From Candidatus Micrarchaeota archaeon (lineage in GTDB: Archaea; Micrarchaeota; Micrarchaeia; Anstonellales; Bilamarchaeaceae): a stretch of DNA of 42,116 bases. Position 1 is the first letter of the stretch; each line of letters begins with the position of its first letter. The stretch spans positions 12,048 through 54,163 of the forward strand of contig JAHFFJ010000004.1 of assembly GCA_023248035.1 (NCBI GenBank), written 5' to 3'. Below, one piece after another: positions 554-41,640 of the stretch. A program made the translations under genes and the position numbers. Under the pieces are notes generated by a model. It was not told the DNA's origin, made no database searches, and worked only from the letters and a program-made list of their open reading frames with translations.

Positions 554-705
554 ATCTTCACCTCAATTCGTGTTAAAAATAGAAATAATGCGGACTTATT
601 AAAAATATATCTCCCGATTAGAATTTATTGTAAACAACATACCAAGAATACTGCCGACTCGAGCAGATGAATTGGCGCAAATCCTTTTTCTTTAACATTA
701 AAATC

Positions 706-790
706 TAGGCGCGAGCGGATGCGGGTTTCAGCCCGCAGATAGCGAGCGCATTTTAGTTTTCCGTGCGAGTCCTCAGGCGAGCGAACGGAA
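706..790 (+). repeat. GC-rich GCGAGC-repeat patch ending in a copy of the intron M module
   Basis: Four GCGAG(C) copies in about 80 nt plus hairpin gcggg-tttcag-cccgc. Positions 763-787, gtgcgagtcctcaggcgagcgaacg, match the M module gtgcgagccgata(a)ggcgagcg(a/t)ac found inside the tRNA introns at 9602-9626, 18722-18745 and 23129-23154. Confidence 0.45.
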
Positions 791-792
791 AA

Positions 793-2331
793 TTATTTTA
801 CAAGTTGATGGGCTTTCTTTATACCCTCCCAACTTTCCCCTTTTATGAGAGCATAAGCAACTTTTTTTATCCCAGCTATTTCAGTCCGTATTTGCTCACC
901 AGTATTCCTATACCGAATAGTAACCGTACCCTTCTCAAGTGTTTCATAATCTATTGTGATCGCTATAGGTATTCCTATTTCATCCGCTCTTGCATATCGC
1001 CTTCCAATACTTCCACTCTCACGATAATCAACGTCCAATCCTACAAGGCGTAATTCACTTACAACTTCTTTTGCTTTATTGTCAAGGCCATCTTTACTCA
1101 TAAGTGGGAAAACAGCGACATGGTAAGGTGCAATAATAGCAGGAAAATCGAACCACTCCCATTCCTTAGCGGTTCCGTGCTTCCAGTTTCCAGCTTCGTC
1201 TTTCTCATCTTTATCTCTAAAACAATGCTCAAGAATACAGAAAAACAGCCTATCCAATCCCATCGCTATCTCAAAAACATGGGGGACTATCTTTCTCCCA
1301 TCAACATGGACGCTAAAGTCCTTTCCGCTTTGTTTTGCATGTTGTGAAAGGTCAAAATCAGTACGGTAAGAATTTCCAATTGTTTCAATTGCACCATATG
1401 AAGTTTCAACTTCCATATCTATGTTCCCTTTGGAATAATGAGGTAATTCGTTCTGGTCAAGCACACGATAATACATCTTACTCGTATCCACACCCGCTCG
1501 CTTATAAAATTCCCATCCGCGAACAAGGTAATATGCCATTATCTCATTAGCAGTAACTTTTTCTTTCACAATCTCTCCACTAGTCATTTCTTTTTTTACC
1601 CCACCAATCATCATGGTCAGGCTTTGAGTAGATAAGCTATCAAAAATTTCATGCTTGTCCTTAAGAGGATCAAAAAAATATTCCAGTTCCATTTGCGTAA
1701 ATTCTCTCATTCTCACAAGGCCTTTTCTTGGTGAAATCTCATTTCTAAAACTTCTGCCCACCTGGCCTACTGCAAGAGGTAGCTTGGTGCCATGGTTCCT
1801 AAAAAGCCTGGGGAATGCTGTAAAAGTTCCCTGCGCAGTTTCCGGCCTTGAATATCCCGGAACCCTCTCCCCTCCGATTTGGGTTGCAAACATAAGGTTG
1901 AATTTGTATGCCTTTCCAAAACTCCCCTGGCATCTTGGGCAAACTATCTTTTGATCCGCTATTATCTGATCTAGTGTTTCGAGTTTGCCATCCCAGCGTC
2001 CACCCTGCTTTTCATAGTGTTTTTCTTCTGCTAGATGGTCTGCCCGGATGCGTGTCTTGCACTTTAAACATTCTACAACCGGATCAGAAAAATTTGCAAC
2101 ATGTCCTGATGCTATTAGTACTGGTTCAGGAGTTATAAGCGAACTTTGAATCTCCAAAAAGCCCTCATTTTTTATGAACATTTCACGCCAGAGATTCTCG
2201 ATCTTATGCTTTATCAAAACCCCTACCGGTCCATAATCGTAAAATCCGGCAATTCCACCATATGGTTCATTGCTCGGAAAGAAAAATGACCTTTTTAACG
2301 CTAGTTCAAATATTCTCTCGTGAAGTTGCAT
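793..2331 (-). CDS. glyS: Glycine--tRNA ligase, archaeal/eukaryal dimeric type
   Basis: 512-aa ORF. N-terminus FFFPSNEPYGGIAGFYDYGPVGVLIKHKIENLWREMFI and class II core (RNEISPRKGLVRMREFTQMELEYF) are typical of alpha2 GlyRS. Confidence 0.93.
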   Translation of the reverse strand: MQLHERIFELALKRSFFFPSNEPYGGIAGFYDYGPVGVLIKHKIENLWREMFIKNEGFLEIQSSLITPEPVLIASGHVANFSDPVVECLKCKTRIRADHLAEEKHYEKQGGRWDGKLETLDQIIADQKIVCPRCQGSFGKAYKFNLMFATQIGGERVPGYSRPETAQGTFTAFPRLFRNHGTKLPLAVGQVGRSFRNEISPRKGLVRMREFTQMELEYFFDPLKDKHEIFDSLSTQSLTMMIGGVKKEMTSGEIVKEKVTANEIMAYYLVRGWEFYKRAGVDTSKMYYRVLDQNELPHYSKGNIDMEVETSYGAIETIGNSYRTDFDLSQHAKQSGKDFSVHVDGRKIVPHVFEIAMGLDRLFFCILEHCFRDKDEKDEAGNWKHGTAKEWEWFDFPAIIAPYHVAVFPLMSKDGLDNKAKEVVSELRLVGLDVDYRESGSIGRRYARADEIGIPIAITIDYETLEKGTVTIRYRNTGEQIRTEIAGIKKVAYALIKGESWEGIKKAHQLVK

Positions 2332-2899: not shown

Positions 2900-3943
2900 T
2901 CAACGGACAAAAAAGAACAGCACTGCTATGATAAGGTACATTATCACAAGCTGTGCCCCTTCAAACCAATTACATCGTCCATCGGTTGAAATTTCGTTTA
3001 CTATAAGTACGCTTGCAAAGACTGCGATAACTTCAAAAGGCGTGAAAACCAGATCCATTCCCTTTCCCATTAGTGTACCTGCAATCACAGTAAGGGGTGC
3101 AACAAACATTGCTATCTGGAGGGATGACCCCACAGTGACATTGACACTCAAATCAAGATCGTTTTTAAGTGCGAAAAATACGGCTGCAAGATGCTCAGCT
3201 GCATTACCAACTACTGCTACTATTATTGCACCTATAAACAGTTCAGTAAGTCCAAAATTTTCAGCAACGTGCTCTATCTGACCAACGAAAACTTCGCTGA
3301 TAATTCCTAACAATATTGTAGAAACTACAAGTACGCCTATTGCAAAATTCCTACTCCATTGTGCCTTTTCACCATCTTCTTTTGTTCTAAAAAGATATTG
3401 GTGGGTTTTGAGAGAAAACACCATACTGAGCGTGTAAATCGAGATCATCAAAATTGATACGCAAAGGCTTAGTATGTGCTCATCCTCATTACGATGCTCT
3501 GCCGGCACAAAATGGAACAAACTCGGAATCATTATGCTCATGAAGGCAATTAGGAGCATAGTCGAATTCATACCTGCAAGATGGGTAGAAAATTTTTGCT
3601 CCTTAAATTTCAAACCTCCAAAAAACAGACTAAGTCCAAATACGAACAAGAGATTGCCTATTATACTTCCTGCAATTGAAGCCTTTACTAGTTCTATCAG
3701 GCCTTTATTTATGGCTAGGAGTGCAATTATCAATTCCGCAGCATTTCCAAATGTAGCATTTAGTAAGCCACCAATCTGCCCCCCATAAATTTTTGCAAGT
3801 TCTTCGGTAGCTTCCCCCATCTTTGCTGCTAATGGGAGAATTGCAAGTAGGGAAGATACAAAAATAACCGTGCTATCTGCCCCAACAAAATTTAGGACTA
3901 GGGTAATAGGAATGAAAATTAGCAAAATGTCCATTATTCGCAT
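2900..3943 (-). CDS. Ca2+/H+ antiporter (CaCA/CAX family)
   Basis: 347-aa polytopic ORF with both alpha-repeat signatures, GNAAELIIALLAINKG and GNAAEHLAAVFFALKNDLDLSV. Confidence 0.88.
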   Translation of the reverse strand: MRIMDILLIFIPITLVLNFVGADSTVIFVSSLLAILPLAAKMGEATEELAKIYGGQIGGLLNATFGNAAELIIALLAINKGLIELVKASIAGSIIGNLLFVFGLSLFFGGLKFKEQKFSTHLAGMNSTMLLIAFMSIMIPSLFHFVPAEHRNEDEHILSLCVSILMISIYTLSMVFSLKTHQYLFRTKEDGEKAQWSRNFAIGVLVVSTILLGIISEVFVGQIEHVAENFGLTELFIGAIIVAVVGNAAEHLAAVFFALKNDLDLSVNVTVGSSLQIAMFVAPLTVIAGTLMGKGMDLVFTPFEVIAVFASVLIVNEISTDGRCNWFEGAQLVIMYLIIAVLFFFVR

Positions 3944-9423: not shown

Positions 9424-9544
9424 CCACTTTACAATAAAGTGAAATTTTCTTAAATCCGACCATAAAAAAAGCCATTTTTTCTGTTTTATCTACATAGAAA
9501 TAGTCAATCTAACATTTCAAAATGAAAAATAGCCCCGGGCAGAT

Positions 9545-9760
9545 TCTCGAGCTTTTGGAAAAAGCTCGACCAAAACGGTCTGCTAATTTTTGCTTTTTTC
9601 TGTACGCTCGCCTTATCGGCTCGCACAGAACTGATAACAAAAATGGTTTACTAAAGTTCAGTAATTTTCCGATAAGGAAAATTCAACTGAACAAAAACCA
9701 AAAACCCGAAAAGGGTTTTCAACAGAAAGTTTTGATCAAAACTTTTTCTAAAAGTTTTGT
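9545..9760 (-). other. tRNA-Gln intron 2, inside the T-loop (~216 nt), full-length modular element
   Basis: It separates GGCAGTTCGA from ATCTGCC; the junction is ambiguous within GAA. It contains H1 (9738-9758), H2 (about 9700-9720), H3 (9656-9692), M (9602-9626), ccaaaacggtctgctaat (9570-9587) and H4 (9547-9569). Confidence 0.7.
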
Positions 9761-9803
9761 TCGAACTGCCGTCAAGAGGTCCAGAACCTCCTATCCTTGA
9801 CCA

Positions 9804-9915
9804 AAGTCTGCACTTTTTTAGGAAAAAAGTGCACAAAAAACTGGTTTGTTATCAGTCAAAAACCCGAAGGGGGTTTCAACACCAATTTTTGATCCAACTT
9901 TTTTTGAAAAAGTTG
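9804..9915 (-). other. tRNA-Gln intron 1, inside the D-loop (~112 nt)
   Basis: It separates GTCTAGCC from TGGTCAAGGAT. It contains hairpins ccaac..gttgg (9894-9916) and gcac..gtgc (9810-9832) and an H2 copy (about 9858-9878). Confidence 0.7.
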
Positions 9916-9955
9916 GGCTAGACGACGGGGCTATAACTGAAATTTGTTTGATAAG

Positions 9956-10009: not shown

Positions 10010-10135
10010 GTTCAGTAATTTTCCGATAAGGAAAATTCAACTGAACAAAACCAAAAAACGAAACTTATATATAGTGGGAAACTTCTAATAAATGTGTACA
10101 GTTAGTTTTTTGGTTCTTTTTTCCTAAAAAAGAAC
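10010..10135 (-). repeat. Solo (non-tRNA) fragment of the intron element
   Basis: Positions 10010-10046 are a 37/37 identical copy of hairpin H3 (9656-9692; reverse complement at 18665-18701), followed by caaaaccaaaaaa. Positions 10112-10135 are an H-type hairpin, ggttcttttttcctaaaaaagaac. No tRNA exon-like sequence flanks them. Confidence 0.6.
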
Positions 10136-18558: not shown

Positions 18559-18830
18559 GGGGAAATGAGCTAACCTGGTATGCTGTCAGCTTTGGGTCTC
18601 CACCTTTTAGGAAAAGGTGGAGCCAAAACGTGCTGTTTCAAAACCCTTTCGGGTTTTTGGTTTTGTTCAGTTGAATTTTCCTTATCGGAAAATTACTGAA
18701 CTTCACAAACCATTTTTGTAAGTGCGAGCCGATAGGCGAGCGAACGAAACAAAAATTAGCAAGACTGTTTTGGGTACCTTTTAAGGTATCAAAAGAGCTG
18801 GTTGTCTGAGTTCAAATCTCAGTTTCCCCA
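18559..18830 (+). tRNA. tRNA-Pro(UGG) with a 199-nt intron at 37/38
   Basis: Exon 1 is 18559-18596 (GGGGAAATGAGCTAACCTGGTATGCTGTCAGCTTTGGG). Exon 2 is 18796-18830 (AGCTGGTTGTCTGAGTTCAAATCTCAGTTTCCCCA). Features are acceptor GGGGAAA/TTTCCCC, anticodon arm TCAGC-TTTGGGA-GCTGG, T arm CTGAG-TTCAAAT-CTCAG and discriminator A. Confidence 0.88.
18597..18795 (+). other. tRNA-Pro canonical-position intron (199 nt), full-length modular element
   Basis: It contains H1 ctccaccttttaggaaaaggtggag (18598-18622), H2 aaaaccctttcgggtttt, H3 (18665-18701), M (18722-18745), attagcaagactgttttggg (18755-18774) and H4 gtaccttttaaggtat. CAAA (18790-18793) pairs with loop nt 32-35 UUUG, leaving an AG|A bulge at the 3' splice site. 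Confidence 0.8.
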
Positions 18831-18975
18831 TAAAAGGAACCAAGGTTCCTTTTTATCCTCCTTTGAAAAGAACCAATGGTTCTTTTTGAATCTCATGAAA
18901 GAACCTACGGTTCTTTCTATCTCCCTCTTTTTTGAATCAAGGTTTCTTTCTAACTTCCTTTTCTTTGAGTATTTT
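18831..18975. repeat. Tandem array (~4 units, ~33-nt period) of palindromic hairpins
   Basis: The units are aaaaggaaccaaggttcctttt, gaaaagaaccaatggttcttttt, gaaagaacctacggttctttc and a degenerate fourth, separated by the pyrimidine spacers atcctcc, gaatctc, atctccc and aacttcc. The first hairpin plus T5 sits directly 3' of tRNA-Pro (terminator-like). Confidence 0.75.
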
Positions 18976-20247: not shown

Positions 20248-20955
20248 ATGGCAGCAACATCAAGGCCACCTTCAGTTGCTCTACCGCCAGAACAAAGACC
20301 ATCTCCATTTGCTCTGGATCCAGAACAAAGACCAAAACCCAAAGGTACTTATAGTTCTAGATCACCTCAAGTTGAATCTCCTCAATCTATACGCTCTGTT
20401 ACTCCTGCTAATCGATCTGGTGCAATATCCAGAAAGCCTCGATCAGACCAAGAAGAAAAATTATCTCCAGAAGAAAAAACAAGGCAATTGACCCTTATAG
20501 CAAGACTAAAAACAAATGTAGCCGGAATCACATCCGATGATTTTTCAGAATTTATTAGAGCTAGTACTGATTGCGAAGTTGCTTTGGCTTTCACTTCTCT
20601 TTTGGCAGTGTATCTTGATCGGCACGAACCGGAACATATATTTCTTGTTTCTATCTTAGTTGCCTTTTCTGGTTCAGAAGAACTTAGGAGTCATGGCATT
20701 CTTTGTCTAAAAAACATAGCGAAAAATGGCCATAATATTTGTGAATTCTTAGACTCTACTGGCAATTCCAACTCCACAGGCCCTACAAATCCACTTAGAC
20801 TTATTATGGAAGATATAAATCTATCAGGTATTTCCAATATAATTGATATACTTGTGTTGCATGCAAATCTTGGTCATACTCAAAGAGCCCAAGTTTTAGA
20901 TGTTATCGAAGGGAAACCCGATTTTGTTAGACTAAAAACTGCGTTAACTATATAG
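20248..20955 (+). CDS. Hypothetical protein with a Pro/Ser-rich repeat-containing N-terminus
   Basis: 235-aa ORF with the internal DNA/peptide duplication PPEQRPSPFALDPEQRPKPKG. Its stop abuts the 3' end of the convergent tRNA-Thr. Confidence 0.5.
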   Translation: MAATSRPPSVALPPEQRPSPFALDPEQRPKPKGTYSSRSPQVESPQSIRSVTPANRSGAISRKPRSDQEEKLSPEEKTRQLTLIARLKTNVAGITSDDFSEFIRASTDCEVALAFTSLLAVYLDRHEPEHIFLVSILVAFSGSEELRSHGILCLKNIAKNGHNICEFLDSTGNSNSTGPTNPLRLIMEDINLSGISNIIDILVLHANLGHTQRAQVLDVIEGKPDFVRLKTALTI

Positions 20956-20989
20956 CCTCGGGAGGGATTTGAACCCCCGGCCTCCTCCT

Positions 20990-21107
20990 TGCCCGCTTTT
21001 GGTAAAAGCGGGACCAAAACAGTCTTGCTAATTTTCGCTGCGCGAAAATGTAAAACCCGAAAGGGTTTTCAACAGAAAGTTTTGATCCAACTTTTCCTAA
21101 AAGTTGG
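20990..21107 (-). other. tRNA-Thr intron at 37/38 (118 nt), element variant lacking H3
   Basis: It contains H1 ccaac..gttgg (21087-21107), caacagaaagttttgatc, H2 (about 21051-21070), ccaaaacagtcttgctaat (21014-21032) and H4 cccgc..gcggg (20992-21012). Intron nt -6..-3 CGGG pair with loop 32-35 CUCG, leaving a CA|A bulge. Confidence 0.75.
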
Positions 21108-21128
21108 TACGAGAGAGGCGCTCTACCA

Positions 21129-21208
21129 TTTTTCGCGCTTTTTTAGTAAAAAAGCGCACCAAAAAACTAACAATAAGTTTTTGATGCACCTTTTTTCTAA
21201 AAAGGTGC
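21129..21208 (-). other. tRNA-Thr D-loop intron (80 nt), minimal element (H1 - closing stem - H4)
   Basis: It separates GCTCAGT from TGGTAGAGC. The hairpins are gcacc..ggtgc (21186-21208) and gcgc..gcgc (21135-21157), with AUCAAAAAC...GUUUUUUGGU between them. Confidence 0.7.
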
Positions 21209-21245
21209 ACTGAGCTACCGAGGCTTTAATTCAAATTAAATAGTC

Positions 21246-21255: not shown

Positions 21256-21496
21256 GACCTGAGCATTTTCATGAAAGTGTACCCCCGGAGAAAAAATTCA
21301 AATGAACAGGGAAAAAAGGATGATGTTTACTGAATTTTTGACTTGGATAACTGTGGGTGTCAATACGGATGAAGTTTGATGAAACTTTACCATAAGTTTA
21401 TAGGAGGAAAGTTTCGTTTGATGAAACTTTAACTGGAGTCTGTACGAAGTAAAGTTTCAAATGCGCCCGCCGGGATTCGAACCCGGGTCATTAGCT

Positions 21497-21543
21497 CTCA
21501 TCTTTACCCCTAGTTTTGGGCCGCCTTTTCCTAAAAGGCGGAA
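21497..21543 (-). other. tRNA-Gly anticodon-loop intron (~47 nt)
   Basis: It lies between CTTCCA and AGCTAA. It contains the H-type hairpin ccgccttttcctaaaaggcgg (21521-21541) followed by CCCAAAAC. I could not draw a clean 4-bp central helix for a canonical BHB here. Confidence 0.6.
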
Positions 21544-21564
21544 TGGAAGGCTAAGATCCTACCG

Positions 21565-21678
21565 TTTTCCAAGCTTTTAGGTGCGAGCACACCCTGTTAG
21601 GGCGTGTCGCGGTTTCATCAAAACCGATTCGTTATTTTTAACTAATCAGTTTTTGTGAAACTTTTTCCTAAAAAGTTT
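21565..21678 (-). other. tRNA-Gly D-loop intron (~114 nt)
   Basis: It contains hairpin aaac..gttt (21658-21677), CACAAAAAC...GGUUUUGAUG, and a long GC-rich hairpin gtgcgagcacaccctgttagggcgtgtcgc (about 21581-21610) at the M-module position. Confidence 0.6.
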
Positions 21679-21717
21679 GCTAGACTACAGGCGCTTTTTT
21701 CTTTTGTTGTTAAGTTG

Positions 21718-22839: not shown

Positions 22840-22877
22840 AATCTACTATGGTGAAAGTAATCTTATTAATAGCTTTT

Positions 22878-22885
22878 AAAAAAAA
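22878..22885 (-). terminator. Oligo-T tract directly 3' of tRNA-Ser
   Basis: Eight consecutive T on the minus strand start at the nucleotide after discriminator G (22886). Archaeal RNAP terminates at oligo-T. Confidence 0.5.
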
Positions 22886-22900
22886 CGCCGAGGGCAGGAT

Positions 22901-23006
22901 CCCCAACTTTTAGGGAAAGTTGGATCAAAACAGTCTTGCTAGTTTTAAAAACCCGGAAGGGTTTTTCAACAAACTGTTTTTGTAAAACTTTTTTCCTAAA
23001 AAGTTT
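22901..23006 (-). other. tRNA-Ser T-loop intron (~106 nt), element variant lacking H3/M
   Basis: It contains H1 aaaac..gtttt (about 22984-23007), caacaaactgtttttgt, H2 aaaaacccggaagggttttt (about 22947-22968), tcaaaacagtcttgctagt (22924-22943) and H4 ccaac..gttgg (22903-22923). Confidence 0.7.
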
Positions 23007-23035
23007 TTGAACCTGCAATCCACGAGGGATCGGCT

Positions 23036-23072
23036 CTCTCGTAAAATTTGTTCCGTTTTTCCAACAGATCCG
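23036..23072 (-). other. tRNA-Ser canonical 37/38 intron (37 nt)
   Basis: Loop nt 32-35 CUCG (23078-23075) pair perfectly with intron nt -6..-3 CGAG (23041-23038). The 3' bulge is AG|A. Confidence 0.8.
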
Positions 23073-23096
23073 TTCGAGACCGACGCACTACCGGAA

Positions 23097-23187
23097 TGCA
23101 CTGCTGCCTCCAGTTTCCCGTTTTGTTTCGTTCGCTCTCCTTATCGGTTCGCACGAAACTGAAAACTCGAGACTGAAAACGCAATTA
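23097..23187 (-). other. tRNA-Ser D-arm intron (~91 nt)
   Basis: The junction is ambiguous within a duplicated GCA. It contains hairpin CGCA-TAAT-TGCG, the direct repeat GTTTTCAGT x2, the M module (23129-23154, RNA GTGCGAACCGATAAGGAGAGCGAACG) and AAACAAAA as in the Pro intron. Confidence 0.6.
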
Positions 23188-23200
23188 TGCGACCTCGGCA

Positions 23201-23950
23201 CTAATATGAATAACTGGCCATGCTTGCTATAAACAAGAAAGCATAAATTGCCAGAACCACTGCTATTGGTATCAACACCACTGCTGCTGCTCTTAAACGG
23301 TCTAGTTGGTGCACGGTCTTTATTATTTTGTAATTTAGGTATATCGAATATACCGCTATTATGATGCTTAATATTGATCCTAGGCAGGGTATCACCAGTA
23401 GTGGGAAAACGATATTCCATGCTGATGTGACAAATGAGCTGAAATAAACTTGCTCAGTATATTTGCCCTTTCCACCCAATAGCTTTGCAATCAGAAAAGA
23501 AATTCCCTGACCTACTAGCAATACTATAGGTTCTAAGACGATTATCATAACTGCGTATATTATCCCAAAAACTATCAGCCCCAGGCCCAAAGCTCCCCCT
23601 AAAACCCCGCCCATTTCACTACTAATGCTTCCAAATAGGCTGTTGGCGATTGAACCAAAAAACAGTCCTATTATCGCAAAAAGGAGCAATGCTCCTACTG
23701 CAGGCACCAGAGAAGATAATGCTACATTGATTACTGCTTCCTTTAAGTCAGCCTTTGATTTCTGCTCCTGCATAATCTGATCGGTTTTTGAAGGCTCCAA
23801 AAACCTAAACCACAACTTTATCCGCTCAAGTACCATGAGAAGTAATTCAGTCAAACCAGTTAAATTCCTTGCGATAAGCCATCGATGCCATTCTGACCAA
23901 AAATTCTTGTCCTCTATTGCCGGCCTTGGCCTGTATATTTTTAAAATCAT
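23201..23950 (-). CDS. Polytopic membrane protein (possibly Yip1-domain family)
   Basis: 249-aa ORF with about 5 hydrophobic segments after a soluble N-terminus. The family call is by gestalt only. A TATA-like TTTATAGC (23226-23234) for tRNA-Ser lies within its 3' end. Confidence 0.65.
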   Translation of the reverse strand: MILKIYRPRPAIEDKNFWSEWHRWLIARNLTGLTELLLMVLERIKLWFRFLEPSKTDQIMQEQKSKADLKEAVINVALSSLVPAVGALLLFAIIGLFFGSIANSLFGSISSEMGGVLGGALGLGLIVFGIIYAVMIIVLEPIVLLVGQGISFLIAKLLGGKGKYTEQVYFSSFVTSAWNIVFPLLVIPCLGSILSIIIAVYSIYLNYKIIKTVHQLDRLRAAAVVLIPIAVVLAIYAFLFIASMASYSY

Positions 23951-27372: not shown

Positions 27373-27522
27373 TTTACATTTTTTTCTAATTATTCTATCT
27401 TCTCTACTCCTATTTCCTATACATATCCCGTTCAAATCCCCCCAATCTTTATATATTTTGTGTGTTTGCGCCCTATTTTTGGCTATTTATGTTGTCTTGT
27501 GGTTATATCTTTATAAATCCAA

Positions 27523-40689: not shown

Positions 40690-41376
40690 ATGGATCGAGT
40701 AAAGACTGGAATATCTGGAATGGACGAAATGCTTAATGGGGGGATTCCAACTGGAAGACATGTAGCTCTTTATGGCGGACCAGGATCAGGAAAATCATCA
40801 TTCTGTTTTGAGTTCCTCTATCAGGGTGCAAAAATGGGCGAACCGGGACTCTACATTACTCTCGAAGAAACTACTGAAGATATAATAGATAATATGAAAA
40901 ACACATTCCCACTTCTCACCGAGACATCAAAGTTGATAGAAGCAAAAAAGCTTGAAATAGTAAAACCAGAAAAGCTCGACCTTGAAGATGTAGCTAATCT
41001 TCTTGAAGATCGGATCACATCTAACGGGATAAAGCGTGCGGTTATAGATTCCTCGACAATGATCCGCCTTTCTTTCCAGAGTGAGGTGGAATACAGGCAG
41101 ACTCTTTTCGAATTCCTTTCTCTCCTTCGTAATCTCGATGTTACTACTATTACGACTGTGGAAGCAACATCCGCAAGAAAAGAAGAAATGAGATTCGATA
41201 TCGAACAGTTTGTTATGGATGGAATCATAAACCTCTATAATCTCGATCGCGAGGATAGGCGGGTTCGTGCGCTTGAAATCTTCAAAATGCGTGGGAGTGA
41301 CCACTCGCGTGATCTCGTGCCATTTAAGGTGACGCCATCGGGAATCAAGGTTTATGTGGGTGAAAAAGTCTTCTAA
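40690..41376 (+). CDS. KaiC/RecA-superfamily ATPase (single domain)
   Basis: GISGMDEMLNGGIPTGRHVALYGGPGSGKSSFCFEFLYQGAKMGEPGLYITLEE and ALEIFKMRGSDH. Confidence 0.85.
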   Translation: MDRVKTGISGMDEMLNGGIPTGRHVALYGGPGSGKSSFCFEFLYQGAKMGEPGLYITLEETTEDIIDNMKNTFPLLTETSKLIEAKKLEIVKPEKLDLEDVANLLEDRITSNGIKRAVIDSSTMIRLSFQSEVEYRQTLFEFLSLLRNLDVTTITTVEATSARKEEMRFDIEQFVMDGIINLYNLDREDRRVRALEIFKMRGSDHSRDLVPFKVTPSGIKVYVGEKVF

Positions 41377-41640
41377 TAAAAGGAACCAATGGTTCCTTTT
41401 TATCCTCCTTTTTAAGTGATCATGGTTCTTTTTGAATCTCCTTTGAAAAGGACCAAGGTCCTTTTCTAATCTCCTTTTCTTTGAATGGTTCTGTTCCAAT
41501 CTCCTTTTTATTTGAAATGAAAGAAACCAAGGTTTCTTTTTAACTTCCTTTTGAAAGGAAACTACGTTTCCTTTCTAACCTTCCTCCATTAGAACGGTTC
41601 TTTGCAACTTCCTTTTTCTTTCAATTCCTCCAGATGTTTA
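41377..41640. repeat. Tandem array (~7 units) of palindromic hairpins, sister of 18831-18975
   Basis: The units include aaaaggaaccaatggttcctttt, gaaaaggaccaaggtccttttc, gaaagaaaccaaggtttcttttt and gaaaggaaactacgtttcctttc, plus degenerate ones. The spacers are atcctcc, aatctcc, taatctcc and aacttcc. The first ~32 nt are near-identical to the start of the 18831 array. Confidence 0.75.

What the first reader, a model, noticed from the sequence alone, without database searches (positions are those of the whole stretch)
18559..18830. tRNA-Pro(UGG) with a 199-nt anticodon-loop intron carrying the complete element
Exons of 38 and 35 nt flank a 199-nt insert exactly at 37/38. The insert is far larger than typical 37/38 introns of tens of nucleotides, and it contains every module (H1, H2, H3, M, conserved 3' segment, H4). 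This makes it the best reference copy for structure and function work.
Basis: seen in the sequence. Interest (0 to 1): 0.7.

Follow-up and report, generated by a model that had tools for sequence, protein, structure and literature searches.

The report
Giant structured intron in archaeal tRNA-Pro
A proline tRNA gene of an uncultured ultrasmall archaeon (Micrarchaeota) is split in its anticodon loop by a 199-base intron, an enlarged member of a conserved, folded intron family not found in Rfam that sits at three different positions in many tRNA genes of this lineage.

Summary
Window 18559-18830 (+) is a tRNA-Pro(UGG) gene with exons of 38 and 35 nt and a 199-nt insert after position 37. Removing the insert gives a clean cloverleaf. 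The host is a DPANN archaeon (Candidatus Micrarchaeota).

The exon-intron junctions form an archaeal bulge-helix-bulge splice motif. The anticodon stem, a 4-bp helix (U32-G35 with CAAA) and two 3-nt bulges are all present. The outer helix is replaced by the intron's own 5' hairpin, H1.

The insert belongs to a family built on an ~85-nt core of five helices. I found the core in Pro, Thr, Gln, Ser, Ala, Val and Asn tRNA genes, in D-, anticodon- and T-loops, in the window and in related metagenome contigs. It was never found outside tRNA genes. Rfam has no match.

"H3" and "M" are apical expansions of two core hairpins, so the 199-nt copy is an expanded copy. The syntenic tRNA-Pro of one relative carries a 147-nt core-only version. 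Others carry an unrelated intron or none.

This is a new variant of a known kind: mobile-looking archaeal BHB introns. Splicing itself, any function of the core and the spreading mechanism are inferred, not shown.

The parts
18559..18596 (+). tRNA-Pro(UGG) exon 1 (positions 1-37; 38 nt). The anticodon UGG is at 18593-18595.
   Evidence: ARAGORN with introns allowed, and on the spliced sequence. The exon is 100% identical to exon 1 of the syntenic tRNA-Pro in L003, L004 and L020.
18591..18597 (+). 5' half of the BHB motif. UUUG (tRNA 32-35, 18591-18594) forms the central 4-bp helix. The 5' splice-site bulge is G36 G37 | U, with the cut after 18596.
   Evidence: BHB enumeration: H 4/4 and h 5-6 bp only in this register. 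The BHB-constrained fold is -92.1 kcal/mol against an MFE of -96.9.
18597..18795 (+). The 199-nt intron.
   Evidence: It is a paralogue of the tRNA-Gln T-loop intron, with roughly 88% identity in the interior by eye (85% mean column identity over the whole alignment A1).
18598..18622 (+). H1: perfect 11-bp hairpin CUCCACC-UUUU-AGG-AAAA-GGUGGAG. It starts at intron nt 2 and takes the place of the outer BHB helix h'.
   Evidence: The same placement is seen in the other element-type introns. The outer stem differs between most copies, while the inner CUUUU-RRR-AAAAG is conserved.
18623..18629 (+). P 5' strand, CCAAAAC. It pairs with GUUUUGG at 18767-18773.
   Evidence: RNAalifold and pair counts: AAAAC x GUUUU is paired in nearly all of 12 copies (2 unpaired cells in 60) and shows no covariation.
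18634..18638 (+). P2 5' strand, UGUUU. It pairs with UAGCA at 18757-18761. A U.G wobble is invariant in all 12 copies; a second G.U is present in 10 of 12 and is U.U in this copy.
18639..18659 (+). H2: AAAACCC-UUUC-GGGUUUU hairpin, the most conserved block of the family.
   Evidence: The stem-loop is identical in 10 of the 11 copies aligned in A2 (W_Ser has loop UUCC). The closing pair covaries C-G/A-U. L035 Pro has a compensated C-G to U-A change.
18659..18711 (+). H2b (GGUUU x AAACC) carrying the apical expansion H3 (18665-18701, GUUCAGUUGAAUUUUCC-UUAUC-GGAAAAUUACUGAAC).
   Evidence: In core-type copies this is a 2-4-bp hairpin (UGG..CCA) with no H3. The H3 block is 100% identical at 10010-10057 and 96% identical in Gln i2 (I2, D8).
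18712..18756 (+). Hx (AUUUUUGU x ACAAAAAU) carrying the apical expansion M (18722-18745, GUGC-GA-GCC-GAUA-GGC-GA-GCGAAC, with a tandem G.A internal loop).
   Evidence: The Hx base is conserved and its apical pairs covary. M is present only in W_Pro and W_Gln i2 among element copies.
18757..18773 (+). Conserved 3' segment UAGCAAGACUGUUUUGG, comprising the P2 3' strand, a 5-nt joiner and the P 3' strand.
   Evidence: (I5, I18).
18773..18790 (+). H4: hairpin GGUACC-UUUUAA-GGUAUC, the inverted counterpart of H1.
   Evidence: In other copies the H4 loop is CCU/CCA against AGG in H1, so the two ends are inverted repeats (I4, 26).
18790..18796 (+). 3' half of the BHB motif. CAAA (18790-18793) pairs with U32-G35. 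The 3' splice-site bulge is A G | A38, with the cut after 18795.
18796..18830 (+). tRNA-Pro exon 2 (positions 38-73; 35 nt; no encoded CCA).
9544..9759 (-). Closest paralogue: 216-nt intron in the T-loop of tRNA-Gln(CUG), with the same core plus H3 and M. Its BHB uses the T-stem and UUCG x CGAG.
   Evidence: 53.5 bits.
9804..9917 (-). D-loop intron of tRNA-Gln, a diverged copy of the family. H is a perfect GUCU x AGAC helix, and the spliced D-arm equals that of the intronless L019 tRNA-Gln.
   Evidence: 24.5 bits, E 0.0025.
20990..21107 (-). 118-nt core-type intron at 37/38 of tRNA-Thr(CGU). It is orthologous to introns in L005 and L035.
   Evidence: 67.6 bits.
22900..23005 (-). 106-nt reduced copy (no H2b or Hx) in the T-loop of tRNA-Ser(CGA).
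   Evidence: (50.6 bits).
10010..10135 (-). Partial copy outside a tRNA, upstream of tRNA-Gln: an H1-type hairpin and an H3 block, but no core.
   Evidence: (I2, D8, D10). The covariance model does not hit it.

Best explanation
The 199-nt insert is an archaeal bulge-helix-bulge (BHB) tRNA intron in a functional tRNA-Pro(UGG) gene of a Micrarchaeota (DPANN) archaeon.

How the pre-tRNA is read, from sequence:
- The anticodon stem (h) is continued by a 4-bp helix between tRNA nucleotides 32-35 (UUUG) and the last-but-two nucleotides of the intron (CAAA).
- This helix is flanked by two 3-nt bulges (GG|U and AG|A) that hold the splice sites.
- Directly after the 5' bulge the intron folds into its own hairpin, H1. 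H1 stands in for the usual outer helix h', so the motif is of the relaxed hBH/BHL kind.

Inferred steps: the tRNA-splicing endonuclease cuts at 18596/18597 and 18795/18796, and an RtcB-type ligase joins the exons and probably circularises the intron. Micrarchaeum has a broad-specificity epsilon2 endonuclease.

The intron is one member of a lineage-specific family built on a conserved ~85-nt five-helix core (P, P2, H2, H2b, Hx), bracketed by inverted hairpin modules (H1 + CCAAAAC ... GUUUUGG + H4). The family occupies anticodon loops, T-loops and D-loops of many different tRNAs, so it has spread between genes. Each copy has an H4/3' end matched to its own exon. The window copy is an expanded version in which H2b and Hx carry the extra hairpins H3 and M.

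The core is at least as conserved between diverged genomes as the flanking protein-coding DNA. It is therefore under selection, most simply for correct folding and presentation of the splice sites, and possibly for a function of the excised RNA.
For: Gene and intron:
- ARAGORN calls the gene and the intron.
- The exons are identical to those of orthologues whose genomes differ by 15 points of G+C.
- An independent assembly is identical.

Host:
- Nop5, archaeal-type PEP carboxylase and aminoacyl-tRNA synthetases are encoded in the window.
- The best named Nop5 relatives are Micrarchaeota/Bilamarchaeum.

BHB:
- H is 4/4 and h is 5 bp, with two 3-nt bulges, in Pro, Thr i2 and Gln i2; Gly i2 has H 3/4.
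- In the second test, 11 of 12 anticodon/T-loop element introns gave h of at least 5 bp with H 4/4 (9 copies) or 3/4 (the two Val copies), and H1 starts at intron nt 2.
- The BHB-constrained fold costs only 4.8 of 96.9 kcal/mol and reproduces every module.

Family:
- Alignments A2, A3 and A5 define it, and RNAalifold gives the consensus structure.
- 95.8% of cells are paired against about 60% when partners are slid, and 8 pairs change on both sides against 0-3 in slid controls.
- Model R1 hits 12 introns at 50-103 bits and nothing outside tRNA genes.

Spread:
- The Pro (37/38) and Gln (T-loop) introns share an interior that is roughly 88% identical by eye (85% mean column identity over A1), yet have unrelated terminal stems.

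Turnover at the orthologous site:
- No intron in L005, L020 and L021.
- An unrelated 81-133-nt intron in L003, L004 and L019.
- A D-loop intron instead in L018.
- A homologous 147-nt core-type intron in the syntenic L035.

Conservation:
- Intron segments are 75-82% identical between the window and L035, against 65-69% for the flanking coding DNA.

Literature:
- Similar introns in different tRNAs of Thermoproteales were taken as intron transposition (PMC4090602, PMC4033280).
Against: - No RNA evidence: splicing, circularisation and intron stability are all untested.
- The canonical outer helix h' (intron 5'/3' pairing) is absent (0 bp). Cleavage therefore depends on an endonuclease with relaxed specificity, and I did not locate that gene for this organism.
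- The unconstrained MFE pairs the anticodon-stem 5' strand with the intron's CCAAAAC..GCUG segment instead.
- Two related introns (window Thr D-loop intron, L005 Thr i2) give no acceptable BHB.
- In several copies H4 overlaps the 3' strand of the central helix by 1-4 nt, so the two structures compete.
- P, P2 and most of H2 never vary, so they are supported as conserved sequence, not by covariation.
- H1 and H4 are almost purely Watson-Crick (220 WC, 3 G.U). This fits DNA-level palindromes as well as RNA hairpins.
Confidence: 0.8

Rival explanations
1. The element is first of all a DNA transposon of the miniature inverted-repeat (MITE) kind. A transposase recognises its hairpin + CCAAAAC ends. 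It survives in tRNA genes only because it can be spliced out there, in the way IStrons escape by self-splicing.
For: - The two ends are inverted copies: H1 + AUCAAAAC against GUUUUGAU + H4 (34 nt, 91% complementary between H1 of Thr i2 and H4 of Ser i3, I4).
- The terminal hairpins are near-perfect palindromes with almost no G.U pairs.
- A partial copy lies outside a tRNA gene, and 48 nt of it are 100% identical to the Pro intron (I2).
- Units of the same design (stem-TTTT-RRR-AAAA-stem + NNNCCAAAAC), as facing arrays or short perfect-TIR units, fill the intergenic regions of giant-virus and virophage contigs.
- A review proposes that archaeal intron gain proceeds at the DNA level (PMC4090602).
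Against: - No target-site duplication is seen at any copy.
- The outermost stems differ between most copies, which is unlike transposase-bound termini.
- The core was found only inside tRNA genes, at splice-competent positions.
- No core copies turned up in IMG/VR with two patterns.
- No transposase is encoded next to any copy.
- P2 contains a U.G wobble that is invariant in all copies, and it pairs only in the tRNA-sense RNA.
- The giant-virus units have a different interior, and model R1 does not hit them.
Confidence: 0.2
2. The intron exists to deliver a functional small RNA. Once excised, and probably circularised, the conserved core (and, in this copy, M and H3) acts in trans as a guide or as a protein-binding RNA. 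The model is the box C/D RNA nested in the tRNA-Trp introns of Euryarchaeota.
For: - The core is conserved in sequence across paralogues and across orthologues from genomes with 40-55% G+C.
- It is more conserved than the neighbouring coding DNA.
- Its variable hairpin tips tolerate expansions, as in many functional RNAs.
- M-like tandem-G.A hairpins also occur outside the element, at 700-805 and in Ser i1.
- There is precedent for a functional RNA inside a tRNA intron (PMC4090602, section 4).
Against: - The intron has no box C (RUGAUGA), by direct reading.
- There is no ACA-type pocket architecture. M is a symmetric tandem G.A loop, not a K-turn with a 3-nt bulge.
- No Rfam family matches, even at E < 0.5 over the whole window.
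- No variable segment looks like a guide.
- Many copies per genome of one trans-acting RNA is unusual.
- Selection for splice-site presentation alone could explain the conservation.
Confidence: 0.25
3. It is a self-splicing group I (or group II) intron, like the roughly 200-300-nt group I introns in bacterial tRNA anticodon loops.
For: - The size (199 nt) and the anticodon-loop location resemble bacterial tRNA group I introns.
- Group I introns do occur in Micrarchaeota rRNA genes (PMC6125680).
Against: - Rfam gives no hit to Intron_gpI or group II models at gathering threshold or at E up to 10 on this region.
- The helices found (P, P2, H2, H2b, Hx) do not map onto P1-P9.
- The same core sits in the D- and T-loops, with BHB motifs at the junctions.
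Confidence: 0.02
4. The gene is a decaying pseudogene and the insert is junk that is never removed.
For: - The intron is very long and contains two T5 runs that could stop archaeal RNA polymerase.
- Standard tRNA finders miss the gene.
Against: - The exons are identical to those of intronless or differently interrupted orthologues at the same syntenic spot.
- The BHB motif is intact.
- A homologous intron is retained in L035 with compensatory changes.
- All five tRNA genes in the window are interrupted, so interruption is the normal state here.
Confidence: 0.04

Closest known systems
Canonical archaeal BHB tRNA introns at 37/38
   Same: The position is the same, one nucleotide 3' of the anticodon. 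The 4-bp central helix uses tRNA 32-35, there are two 3-nt bulges, and the anticodon stem serves as the outer helix (PMC4090602).
   Different: - At 199 nt it is far longer than the reported 11-129 nt range (median 12-25).
- The outer helix h' is not made by intron 5'/3' pairing; a self-contained hairpin (H1) takes its place.
- The interior is a conserved multi-helix domain rather than free-to-vary sequence.
Transposed intron families of Thermoproteales (Fujishima et al. 2010, as summarised in PMC4090602 and PMC4033280)
   Same: [quoted passage not shown] This implies spread between genes by an unknown mechanism.
   Different: - The phylum is different (DPANN/Micrarchaeota rather than Crenarchaeota).
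- Here there is an ~85-nt core with covariation support, inverted terminal hairpin modules, and apical expansions.
Disrupted tRNA genes and epsilon2 splicing endonuclease of Candidatus Micrarchaeum (ARMAN-2) (PMC3239211)
   Same: The phylum is the same. A majority of tRNA genes are interrupted, with introns in the T-loop and other non-canonical sites and relaxed hBH motifs. This enzyme probably explains why such introns are tolerated.
   Different: - The parts of that paper I read (sections 13 and 17) describe positions and motif types, not a conserved large intron family.
- I did not verify that the window's organism encodes the epsilon2 type.
tRNA-Trp introns carrying a box C/D small RNA
   Same: This is also a long tRNA intron whose interior is a conserved, structured RNA.
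   Different: - There are no C/D boxes here.
- The core is the same in many tRNAs and positions, so it cannot be a position-specific guide for its own host tRNA.
MITEs, and IStrons (transposons that splice themselves out of RNA)
   Same: It is short and non-coding, has inverted terminal modules, occurs in multiple copies per genome, and its insertion is made harmless by RNA splicing.
   Different: - There is no target-site duplication.
- The termini are not constant.
- Copies are confined to tRNA genes.
- Splicing would be done by the host endonuclease, not by a ribozyme.

Membership tests
Archaeal BHB (endonuclease-spliced) tRNA intron | The insert interrupts a tRNA gene, and its removal restores a standard cloverleaf. 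| tested here: met
   ARAGORN on the spliced and unspliced sequence.
Archaeal BHB (endonuclease-spliced) tRNA intron | A central 4-bp helix is flanked by two 3-nt bulges on opposite strands, with the splice sites in the bulges. | tested here: met
   UUUG x CAAA pairs 4/4, with bulges GG|U and AG|A.
Archaeal BHB (endonuclease-spliced) tRNA intron | An exon-side outer helix h is present. | tested here: met
   The anticodon stem gives 5-6 bp directly adjoining the 3' bulge.
Archaeal BHB (endonuclease-spliced) tRNA intron | For the strict hBHBh' form, an intron-side outer helix h' is formed by pairing of the intron 5' and 3' parts. | tested here: not met
   0 bp. Hairpin H1 starts at intron nt 2 instead, so the motif is of the relaxed hBH/BHL type.
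Archaeal BHB (endonuclease-spliced) tRNA intron | The intron is cleaved by the tRNA-splicing endonuclease and the exons are joined by RtcB. | not testable with these tools
   No RNA or enzyme data are available.
Archaeal BHB (endonuclease-spliced) tRNA intron | The host encodes an endonuclease able to cut relaxed motifs (alpha-beta or epsilon2 type). | not tested
   The window was not searched exhaustively for the gene. This is known for ARMAN-2 (PMC3239211).
Paralogous ('transposed') archaeal intron family | Clearly homologous introns occur in different tRNA species and at different positions. | tested here: met
   A1 (85% mean column identity; interior roughly 88% by eye). Model R1 hits introns in Pro, Thr, Gln, Ser, Ala, Val and Asn genes.
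Paralogous ('transposed') archaeal intron family | Presence or absence differs between orthologous genes of related genomes. | tested here: met
   In syntenic tRNA-Pro genes there is no intron in 3 contigs, an unrelated intron in 3, a D-loop intron in 1 and a homologous intron in 1.
Group I intron | Conserved catalytic core (P3-P8), detectable with Rfam RF00028. | tested here: not met
   No hit at gathering threshold or at E up to 10.
MITE / DNA transposon | Terminal inverted repeats. | tested here: inconclusive
   The ends are inverted hairpin + CAAAAC modules (I4), but the outermost stems differ between most copies.
MITE / DNA transposon | Target-site duplication flanking each copy. | tested here: not met
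   The junction sequences of 8 window introns were read directly. Nothing is repeated beyond 1-2 nt of boundary ambiguity.
MITE / DNA transposon | Copies are scattered in non-tRNA DNA. | tested here: not met
   Model R1 with filters off hits only tRNA introns in 42 kb. One partial fragment lies at 10010-10135.
Box C/D sRNA-bearing intron | Box C (RUGAUGA) and box D (CUGA) forming a K-turn. | tested here: not met
   There is no UGAUGA in 18597-18795 (read). The only CUGA lies inside the H3 stem.

The most novel reading that the evidence does not exclude
The ~85-nt core, with its inverted hairpin-CCAAAAC ends, is a new class of mobile genetic element. It would be an RNA domain that carries its own splice-site scaffold (H1 as h', H4 as an exon-matching adaptor) and so can colonise any tRNA loop. 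Its conserved interior would be a functional RNA, either a protein-binding platform or a catalytic aid to insertion or excision. Its end modules would share ancestry or a mobilisation mechanism with the hairpin-CCAAAAC repeat arrays that fill intergenic regions of some giant viruses and virophages.
Probability: 0.12. Interest if true: 0.85.

Novelty: new variant of a known kind. Interest (0 to 1): 0.6.

Why it matters
How archaeal tRNA introns are gained and moved is an open question. The reviews read here state that the transposition mechanism is unknown and the advantage of intron gain is unexplained.

This family offers an unusually tractable case, for four reasons:
- The introns are long, with a recognisable conserved core that a covariance model can track.
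- They sit at three different tRNA positions.
- They show orthologous gain, loss and replacement at a single syntenic site.
- They have a modular design in which the 5' hairpin replaces the outer BHB helix and the 3' hairpin overlaps the exon-matching strand.

The design gives concrete mutants to test what a relaxed-specificity endonuclease really needs. It also gives concrete sequences to look for as circular RNAs.

On the practical side, none of the five tRNA genes in this 42-kb window is found by ARAGORN at default settings or by Rfam. tRNA complements of such DPANN genomes are therefore probably under-called.

Tried and rejected
- **Default annotation.** ARAGORN at default settings and Rfam at gathering threshold found nothing in the window. 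Rfam at E < 0.5 over the whole window gave only an 18-nt tmRNA-like T-arm match.
- **Weak Rfam hits on the region**. The CRISPR-DR21 match (25.6 bits against a cut-off of 48) covers H2 and its flanks. I judged it chance, because the 3' half of the match is not conserved in other copies. The miRNA and plastid-UTR hits are generic hairpins.
- **Group I or II intron.** Rejected (see rivals).
- **Box C/D or H/ACA guide.** There is no box C. The pocket next to M has only 2 nt on its 5' side in this copy. M is not a K-turn.
- **Metagenome scan**. 18 of 24 loci were chance hits (terminator-like hairpins and one CRISPR array). Six were real.
- **Viral-contig scans for the core.** None found.
- **MAFFT alignment of whole introns** misaligns H1 and H4, so RNAalifold did not report them. 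I assessed them by folding each end separately.
- **Strict BHB for D-loop introns.** Found for Gln i1 and (with G.U pairs) Gly i1. Not found for window Thr i1. The only perfect motif there would leave a 16-nt D-loop, so I discarded it.
- **A TIR-TIR pairing model for h'.** It works only in Thr i1 and is not general.
- **Literature search.** The paper search and DOI look-ups timed out throughout. Only four papers were read, by PMC id. Statements about novelty therefore rest on Rfam 15 and those reviews, not on a full search.
Full report
**1. The observation**

Window 18559-18830 (+) reads GGGGAAAUGAGCUAACCUGGUAUGCUGUCAGCUUUGGG | 199 nt | AGCUGGUUGUCUGAGUUCAAAUCUCAGUUUCCCCA. ARAGORN with introns allowed reports tRNA-Pro(tgg) at [18559,18830] with intron i(39,199). 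The spliced 73-mer gives a regular cloverleaf with anticodon UGG, G37 and discriminator A73.

With default settings neither ARAGORN nor Rfam finds any tRNA in the 42-kb window. The pre-tRNA folds much better than shuffled controls (z = -6.2). A contig from a different sample is 100% identical over 5071 nt, including the whole gene (L046).

**2. Host and setting**

The window encodes AlaRS, ProRS, HisRS, archaeal-type PEP carboxylase, Nop5, triosephosphate isomerase and KaiC-like ATPases. The best named relatives of Nop5 (60-72% identity) are all Candidatus Micrarchaeota or Bilamarchaeum. The host is therefore a DPANN archaeon, with about 40% G+C.

The gene order HisRS - KaiC - MJ0538 - Nop5 - (metallophosphoesterase) - GNAT - tRNA-Pro is conserved in eight related contigs. 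This makes the tRNA-Pro genes positional orthologues.

**3. All five tRNA genes in the window are interrupted**

Besides tRNA-Pro, I reconstructed these genes on the minus strand:
- tRNA-Gln(CUG), 9530-9932, with D-loop and T-loop introns.
- tRNA-Thr(CGU), 20954-21224, with D-loop and 37/38 introns.
- tRNA-Gly(UCC), 21462-21694, with D-loop and 37/38 introns.
- tRNA-Ser(CGA), about 22877-23203, with D-loop, 37/38 and T-loop introns.

The spliced Gln, Thr and Gly sequences are all called as tRNAs. Ser was reconstructed by eye against its L018 orthologue.

**4. The splice motif**

I tested every boundary choice that yields the same mature RNA. For Pro, only the 37/38 register gives a bulge-helix-bulge motif:
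- a 4-bp helix, U32-U33-U34-G35 with C18790-A-A-A18793;
- bulges G36 G37 | U and A G | A38;
- the anticodon stem as the outer helix.

The usual intron-side outer helix (intron 5' end pairing with the 3' end) is absent. Instead the hairpin H1 begins at intron nucleotide 2.

The same arrangement recurs in 11 of 12 element-type introns in anticodon loops and T-loops, from the window and from other contigs. The exon stem is 5 bp, the central helix pairs 4/4 in nine copies and 3/4 in the two Val copies, there are two 3-nt bulges, and then H1 follows. In T-loop introns the T-stem and T-loop nucleotides 54-57 play the parts of the anticodon stem and nucleotides 32-35.

For the tRNA-Gln D-loop intron, a perfect central helix (GUCU with AGAC) predicts a mature D-arm identical to that of an intronless orthologue. 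The window tRNA-Thr D-loop intron and the L005 Thr 37/38 intron give no acceptable motif.

Forcing the Pro BHB costs 4.8 kcal/mol relative to the MFE, and the resulting fold contains every module.

By the definitions in PMC4090602 and PMC4033280 this is a relaxed (hBH/BHL-like) motif. The epsilon2 endonuclease of Micrarchaeum cuts such motifs, and 56% of ARMAN-2 tRNA genes are interrupted (PMC3239211). That this enzyme cuts here is inference.

**5. The element**

*Paralogues in the window.* The Pro intron and the 216-nt T-loop intron of tRNA-Gln are clear paralogues. Alignment A1 has 85% mean column identity overall, and the interior is roughly 88% identical by eye. Their terminal hairpin stems share nothing.

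*More copies.* A pattern taken from the interior (AAAAC N9-13 AAACCCTTYCGGGTTT) matches three window introns and L005, with none expected by chance. In JGI metagenomes it retrieved six further true copies, at 37/38 of tRNA-Ala(CGC) (two), tRNA-Val(GAC) (two), tRNA-Thr(CGU) and tRNA-Asn(GUU). These contigs have 42-55% G+C.

*Core structure.* Alignment and RNAalifold give a common core:
- P: AAAAC with GUUUU.
- P2: UGUUG with UAGCA, containing a U.G wobble that is invariant in all 12 copies and a G.U present in 10 of 12.
- H2: AAAACCC-UUUC-GGGUUUU.
- H2b: a small hairpin, UGG..CCA.
- Hx: AUUUU..AAAAU at the base, with a variable tip.

*Support for the structure.* On 12 copies aligned to the covariance model R1, 95.8% of cells pair, against about 60% when partners are slid by one column. 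Eight pairs change on both sides, against 0-3 in slid controls. That alignment is fitted to the model, so it leans towards the structure. The covariation lies in the Hx tip, H2b and the H2 closing pair. P, P2 and most of H2 are invariant.

*Where the core is found.* R1 was built without the Pro copy and hits it at 60 bits. With filters off it finds nothing in the window outside tRNA introns.

Both occur only in the Pro and Gln T-loop introns of this genome.

*The end hairpins.* H1 and H4 are long hairpins with a conserved inner part (C-UUUU-NNN-AAAA-G). Their outer stems differ in nearly every copy.
- The H1 loop is purine-rich (AGG) and the H4 loop is its complement (CCU or CCA). Together with CAAAAC...GUUUUG, this makes the two ends inverted repeats (I4).
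- They are almost purely Watson-Crick: 220 WC pairs and 3 G.U pairs in 22 hairpins.
- The 3' strand of H4 overlaps the intron strand of the central BHB helix by 1-4 nt in several copies. The 5' strand of H4 therefore resembles the exon sequence upstream of the 5' splice site. This explains why H4 is site-specific.

**6. History at the tRNA-Pro site**

| Contig | State of the syntenic tRNA-Pro |
|---|---|
| L005 (Bilamarchaeum dharawalense), L020, L021 | no intron |
| L003, L004, L019 | unrelated 81-133-nt intron at the same 37/38 site |
| L018 | about 36-nt D-loop intron instead |
| L035 (the one contig syntenic beyond tRNA-Pro through to TIM; 64% amino-acid identity in the neighbouring ORF) | homologous 147-nt core-type intron at 37/38, without H3 and M, plus extra D-loop and T-loop introns |

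The element was therefore present at this site before the window and L035 lineages split. H3 and M were either gained in the window lineage or lost in L035.

Intron segments are 75-82% identical between the two contigs, against 65-69% for the flanking coding DNA. The tRNA-Thr 37/38 intron is likewise shared by the window, L005 and L035, with compensated stem changes.

**7. Interpretation**

*Shown from sequence:*
- a tRNA-Pro gene;
- a 199-nt insert at 37/38;
- a relaxed BHB motif;
- membership of a conserved, structured intron family confined to tRNA genes and present at three loop positions;
- turnover at the orthologous site.

*Inferred:*
- excision by the host splicing endonuclease, followed by ligation and circularisation;
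- spread between tRNA genes;
- selection on the core.

I favour a cis role for the core: a compact fold that brings the ends together and presents H1 next to the 5' bulge. A trans function of the excised RNA cannot be excluded.

The mechanism of spread is open. The inverted, palindromic ends and a partial extragenic fragment point to DNA-level mobility. The fragment is at 10010-10135, and 48 nt of it are identical to the Pro intron. Restriction to tRNA genes, the absence of target duplications, variable termini and the RNA-only wobble pairs in P2 point the other way.

**8. A resemblance noticed on the way**

The exact motif CTTTTAGGAAAAG N6-7 CAAAAC occurs in 12 IMG/VR contigs. In most of these it belongs to large families of the same unit (stem-TTTT-RRR-AAAA-stem + NNNCCAAAAC). 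The units are arranged as facing tandem arrays, or as short perfect inverted-repeat units, in intergenic regions.

The contigs are giant viruses (NCLDV capsid, poly(A) polymerase, capping enzyme), a virophage and a tailed virus. Their interiors are unrelated to the archaeal core. R1 gives no significant hit, and there are no core pattern matches in IMG/VR.

I cannot tell whether this is shared ancestry, a shared mechanism or convergence of AT-rich palindromes.

**9. Comparison and novelty**

The general phenomena are known:
- BHB introns;
- multiple and non-canonical introns;
- intron families shared between tRNAs in Thermoproteales;
- heavily interrupted tRNA genes, and a permissive endonuclease, in Micrarchaeum.

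As far as I could check, three things are not described:
- an ~85-nt conserved core with covariation support, shared by introns at D-, anticodon- and T-loop positions;
- the use of an intron-internal hairpin in place of h', and of inverted hairpin end modules;
- intron lengths of 199-216 nt, against a reported maximum of 129.

The check consisted of Rfam 15 and four papers.

I rate this a new variant of a known kind.

Noticed in passing
window 9530-9932 (-), 20954-21224 (-), 21462-21694 (-), about 22877-23203 (-): Four more tRNA genes: Gln-CUG, Thr-CGU, Gly-UCC and Ser-CGA. Each is split by two or three introns in the D-loop, anticodon loop and/or T-loop. Standard tRNA finders and Rfam miss all of them.
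   Followed up: yes
window 10010-10135 (-): A partial copy of the element lies outside any tRNA, upstream of tRNA-Gln. It consists of an H1-type hairpin, CAAAAAAC, 45 nt containing TATATATA, then the H3 block. 48 nt are 100% identical to Pro intron 18654-18701, which suggests recent duplication or gene conversion.
   Followed up: partly
window 700-805 (+) and 23121-23150 (-): Hairpins of the 'M' type (GYGC-GA-stem-loop-stem-GA-GCRC, with a tandem G.A internal loop) occur outside the element. Two in tandem sit at the 3' end of the ProRS ORF, and one is in the D-loop intron of tRNA-Ser.
   Followed up: no
window 18832-18962 and 41376-41616: Tandem arrays of 3-7 units of about 33 nt. Each unit is a hairpin (AAAGGAACC-AA-GGTTCCTTT) followed by TTATCCTCC-like sequence. 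One array directly follows tRNA-Pro and the other follows the stop codon of ORF 40690-41376.
   Followed up: partly
L006, L007, L008, L012-L017 (IMG/VR contigs): Giant-virus and virophage contigs carry dense intergenic arrays of a unit with the same design as the intron's end module (stem-TTTT-RRR-AAAA-stem + NNNCCAAAAC). The arrays face each other in inverted orientation and are bounded by TATATA. L006 has 38 such hairpins in 14 kb.
   Followed up: partly
L003 12159-12291, L004 12150-12230, L019 12049-12131: The orthologous tRNA-Pro genes carry a different intron family at 37/38. It contains UGAUGG ... CUGA, a box C/D-like pair.
   Followed up: no
window 21374-21452 (+); L004 12063-12082; L019 11965-11982: Repeated GTTTGATGAAAC (box-C-like) hairpins lie between tRNA-Gly and tRNA-Thr in the window. 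The same motif lies just upstream of tRNA-Pro in two relatives. These may be small RNA genes.
   Followed up: no
window 21497-21543 (-); L005 20575-20595 (-); L029 (T-loop of tRNA-Ala, at the contig end); L035 about 3735-3790 (-): A short module, UCCGCC-UUUU-NNN-AAAA-GGCGG-CCCAAAA, keeps the same outer stem in four different contexts: a 37/38 intron of tRNA-Gly, the 3' trailer of tRNA-Gly, the T-loop of tRNA-Ala and the D-loop of tRNA-Pro.
   Followed up: no
L035 about 1241-1291 (+) and L044 (D-loop of tRNA-Asn): A further shared D-loop intron type, UUUUGUUUUGCUAAUUUUUCGC...GCGAAAAAUGCAAAAC, occurs in two different tRNAs. Part of it is the reverse complement of the element's AAAAUUAGCAAAAC segment.
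   Followed up: no
window 18635-18670: H2 with its flanks scores 25.6 bits against Rfam CRISPR-DR21 (cut-off 48). I judged this a chance match.
   Followed up: partly
window 27430-27458: A T-arm-like fragment (GTTCAAATCCCCCC) is 72% complementary to the tRNA-Thr 3' end but has no matching 5' stem. It may be a tRNA remnant or an old attachment site.
   Followed up: no
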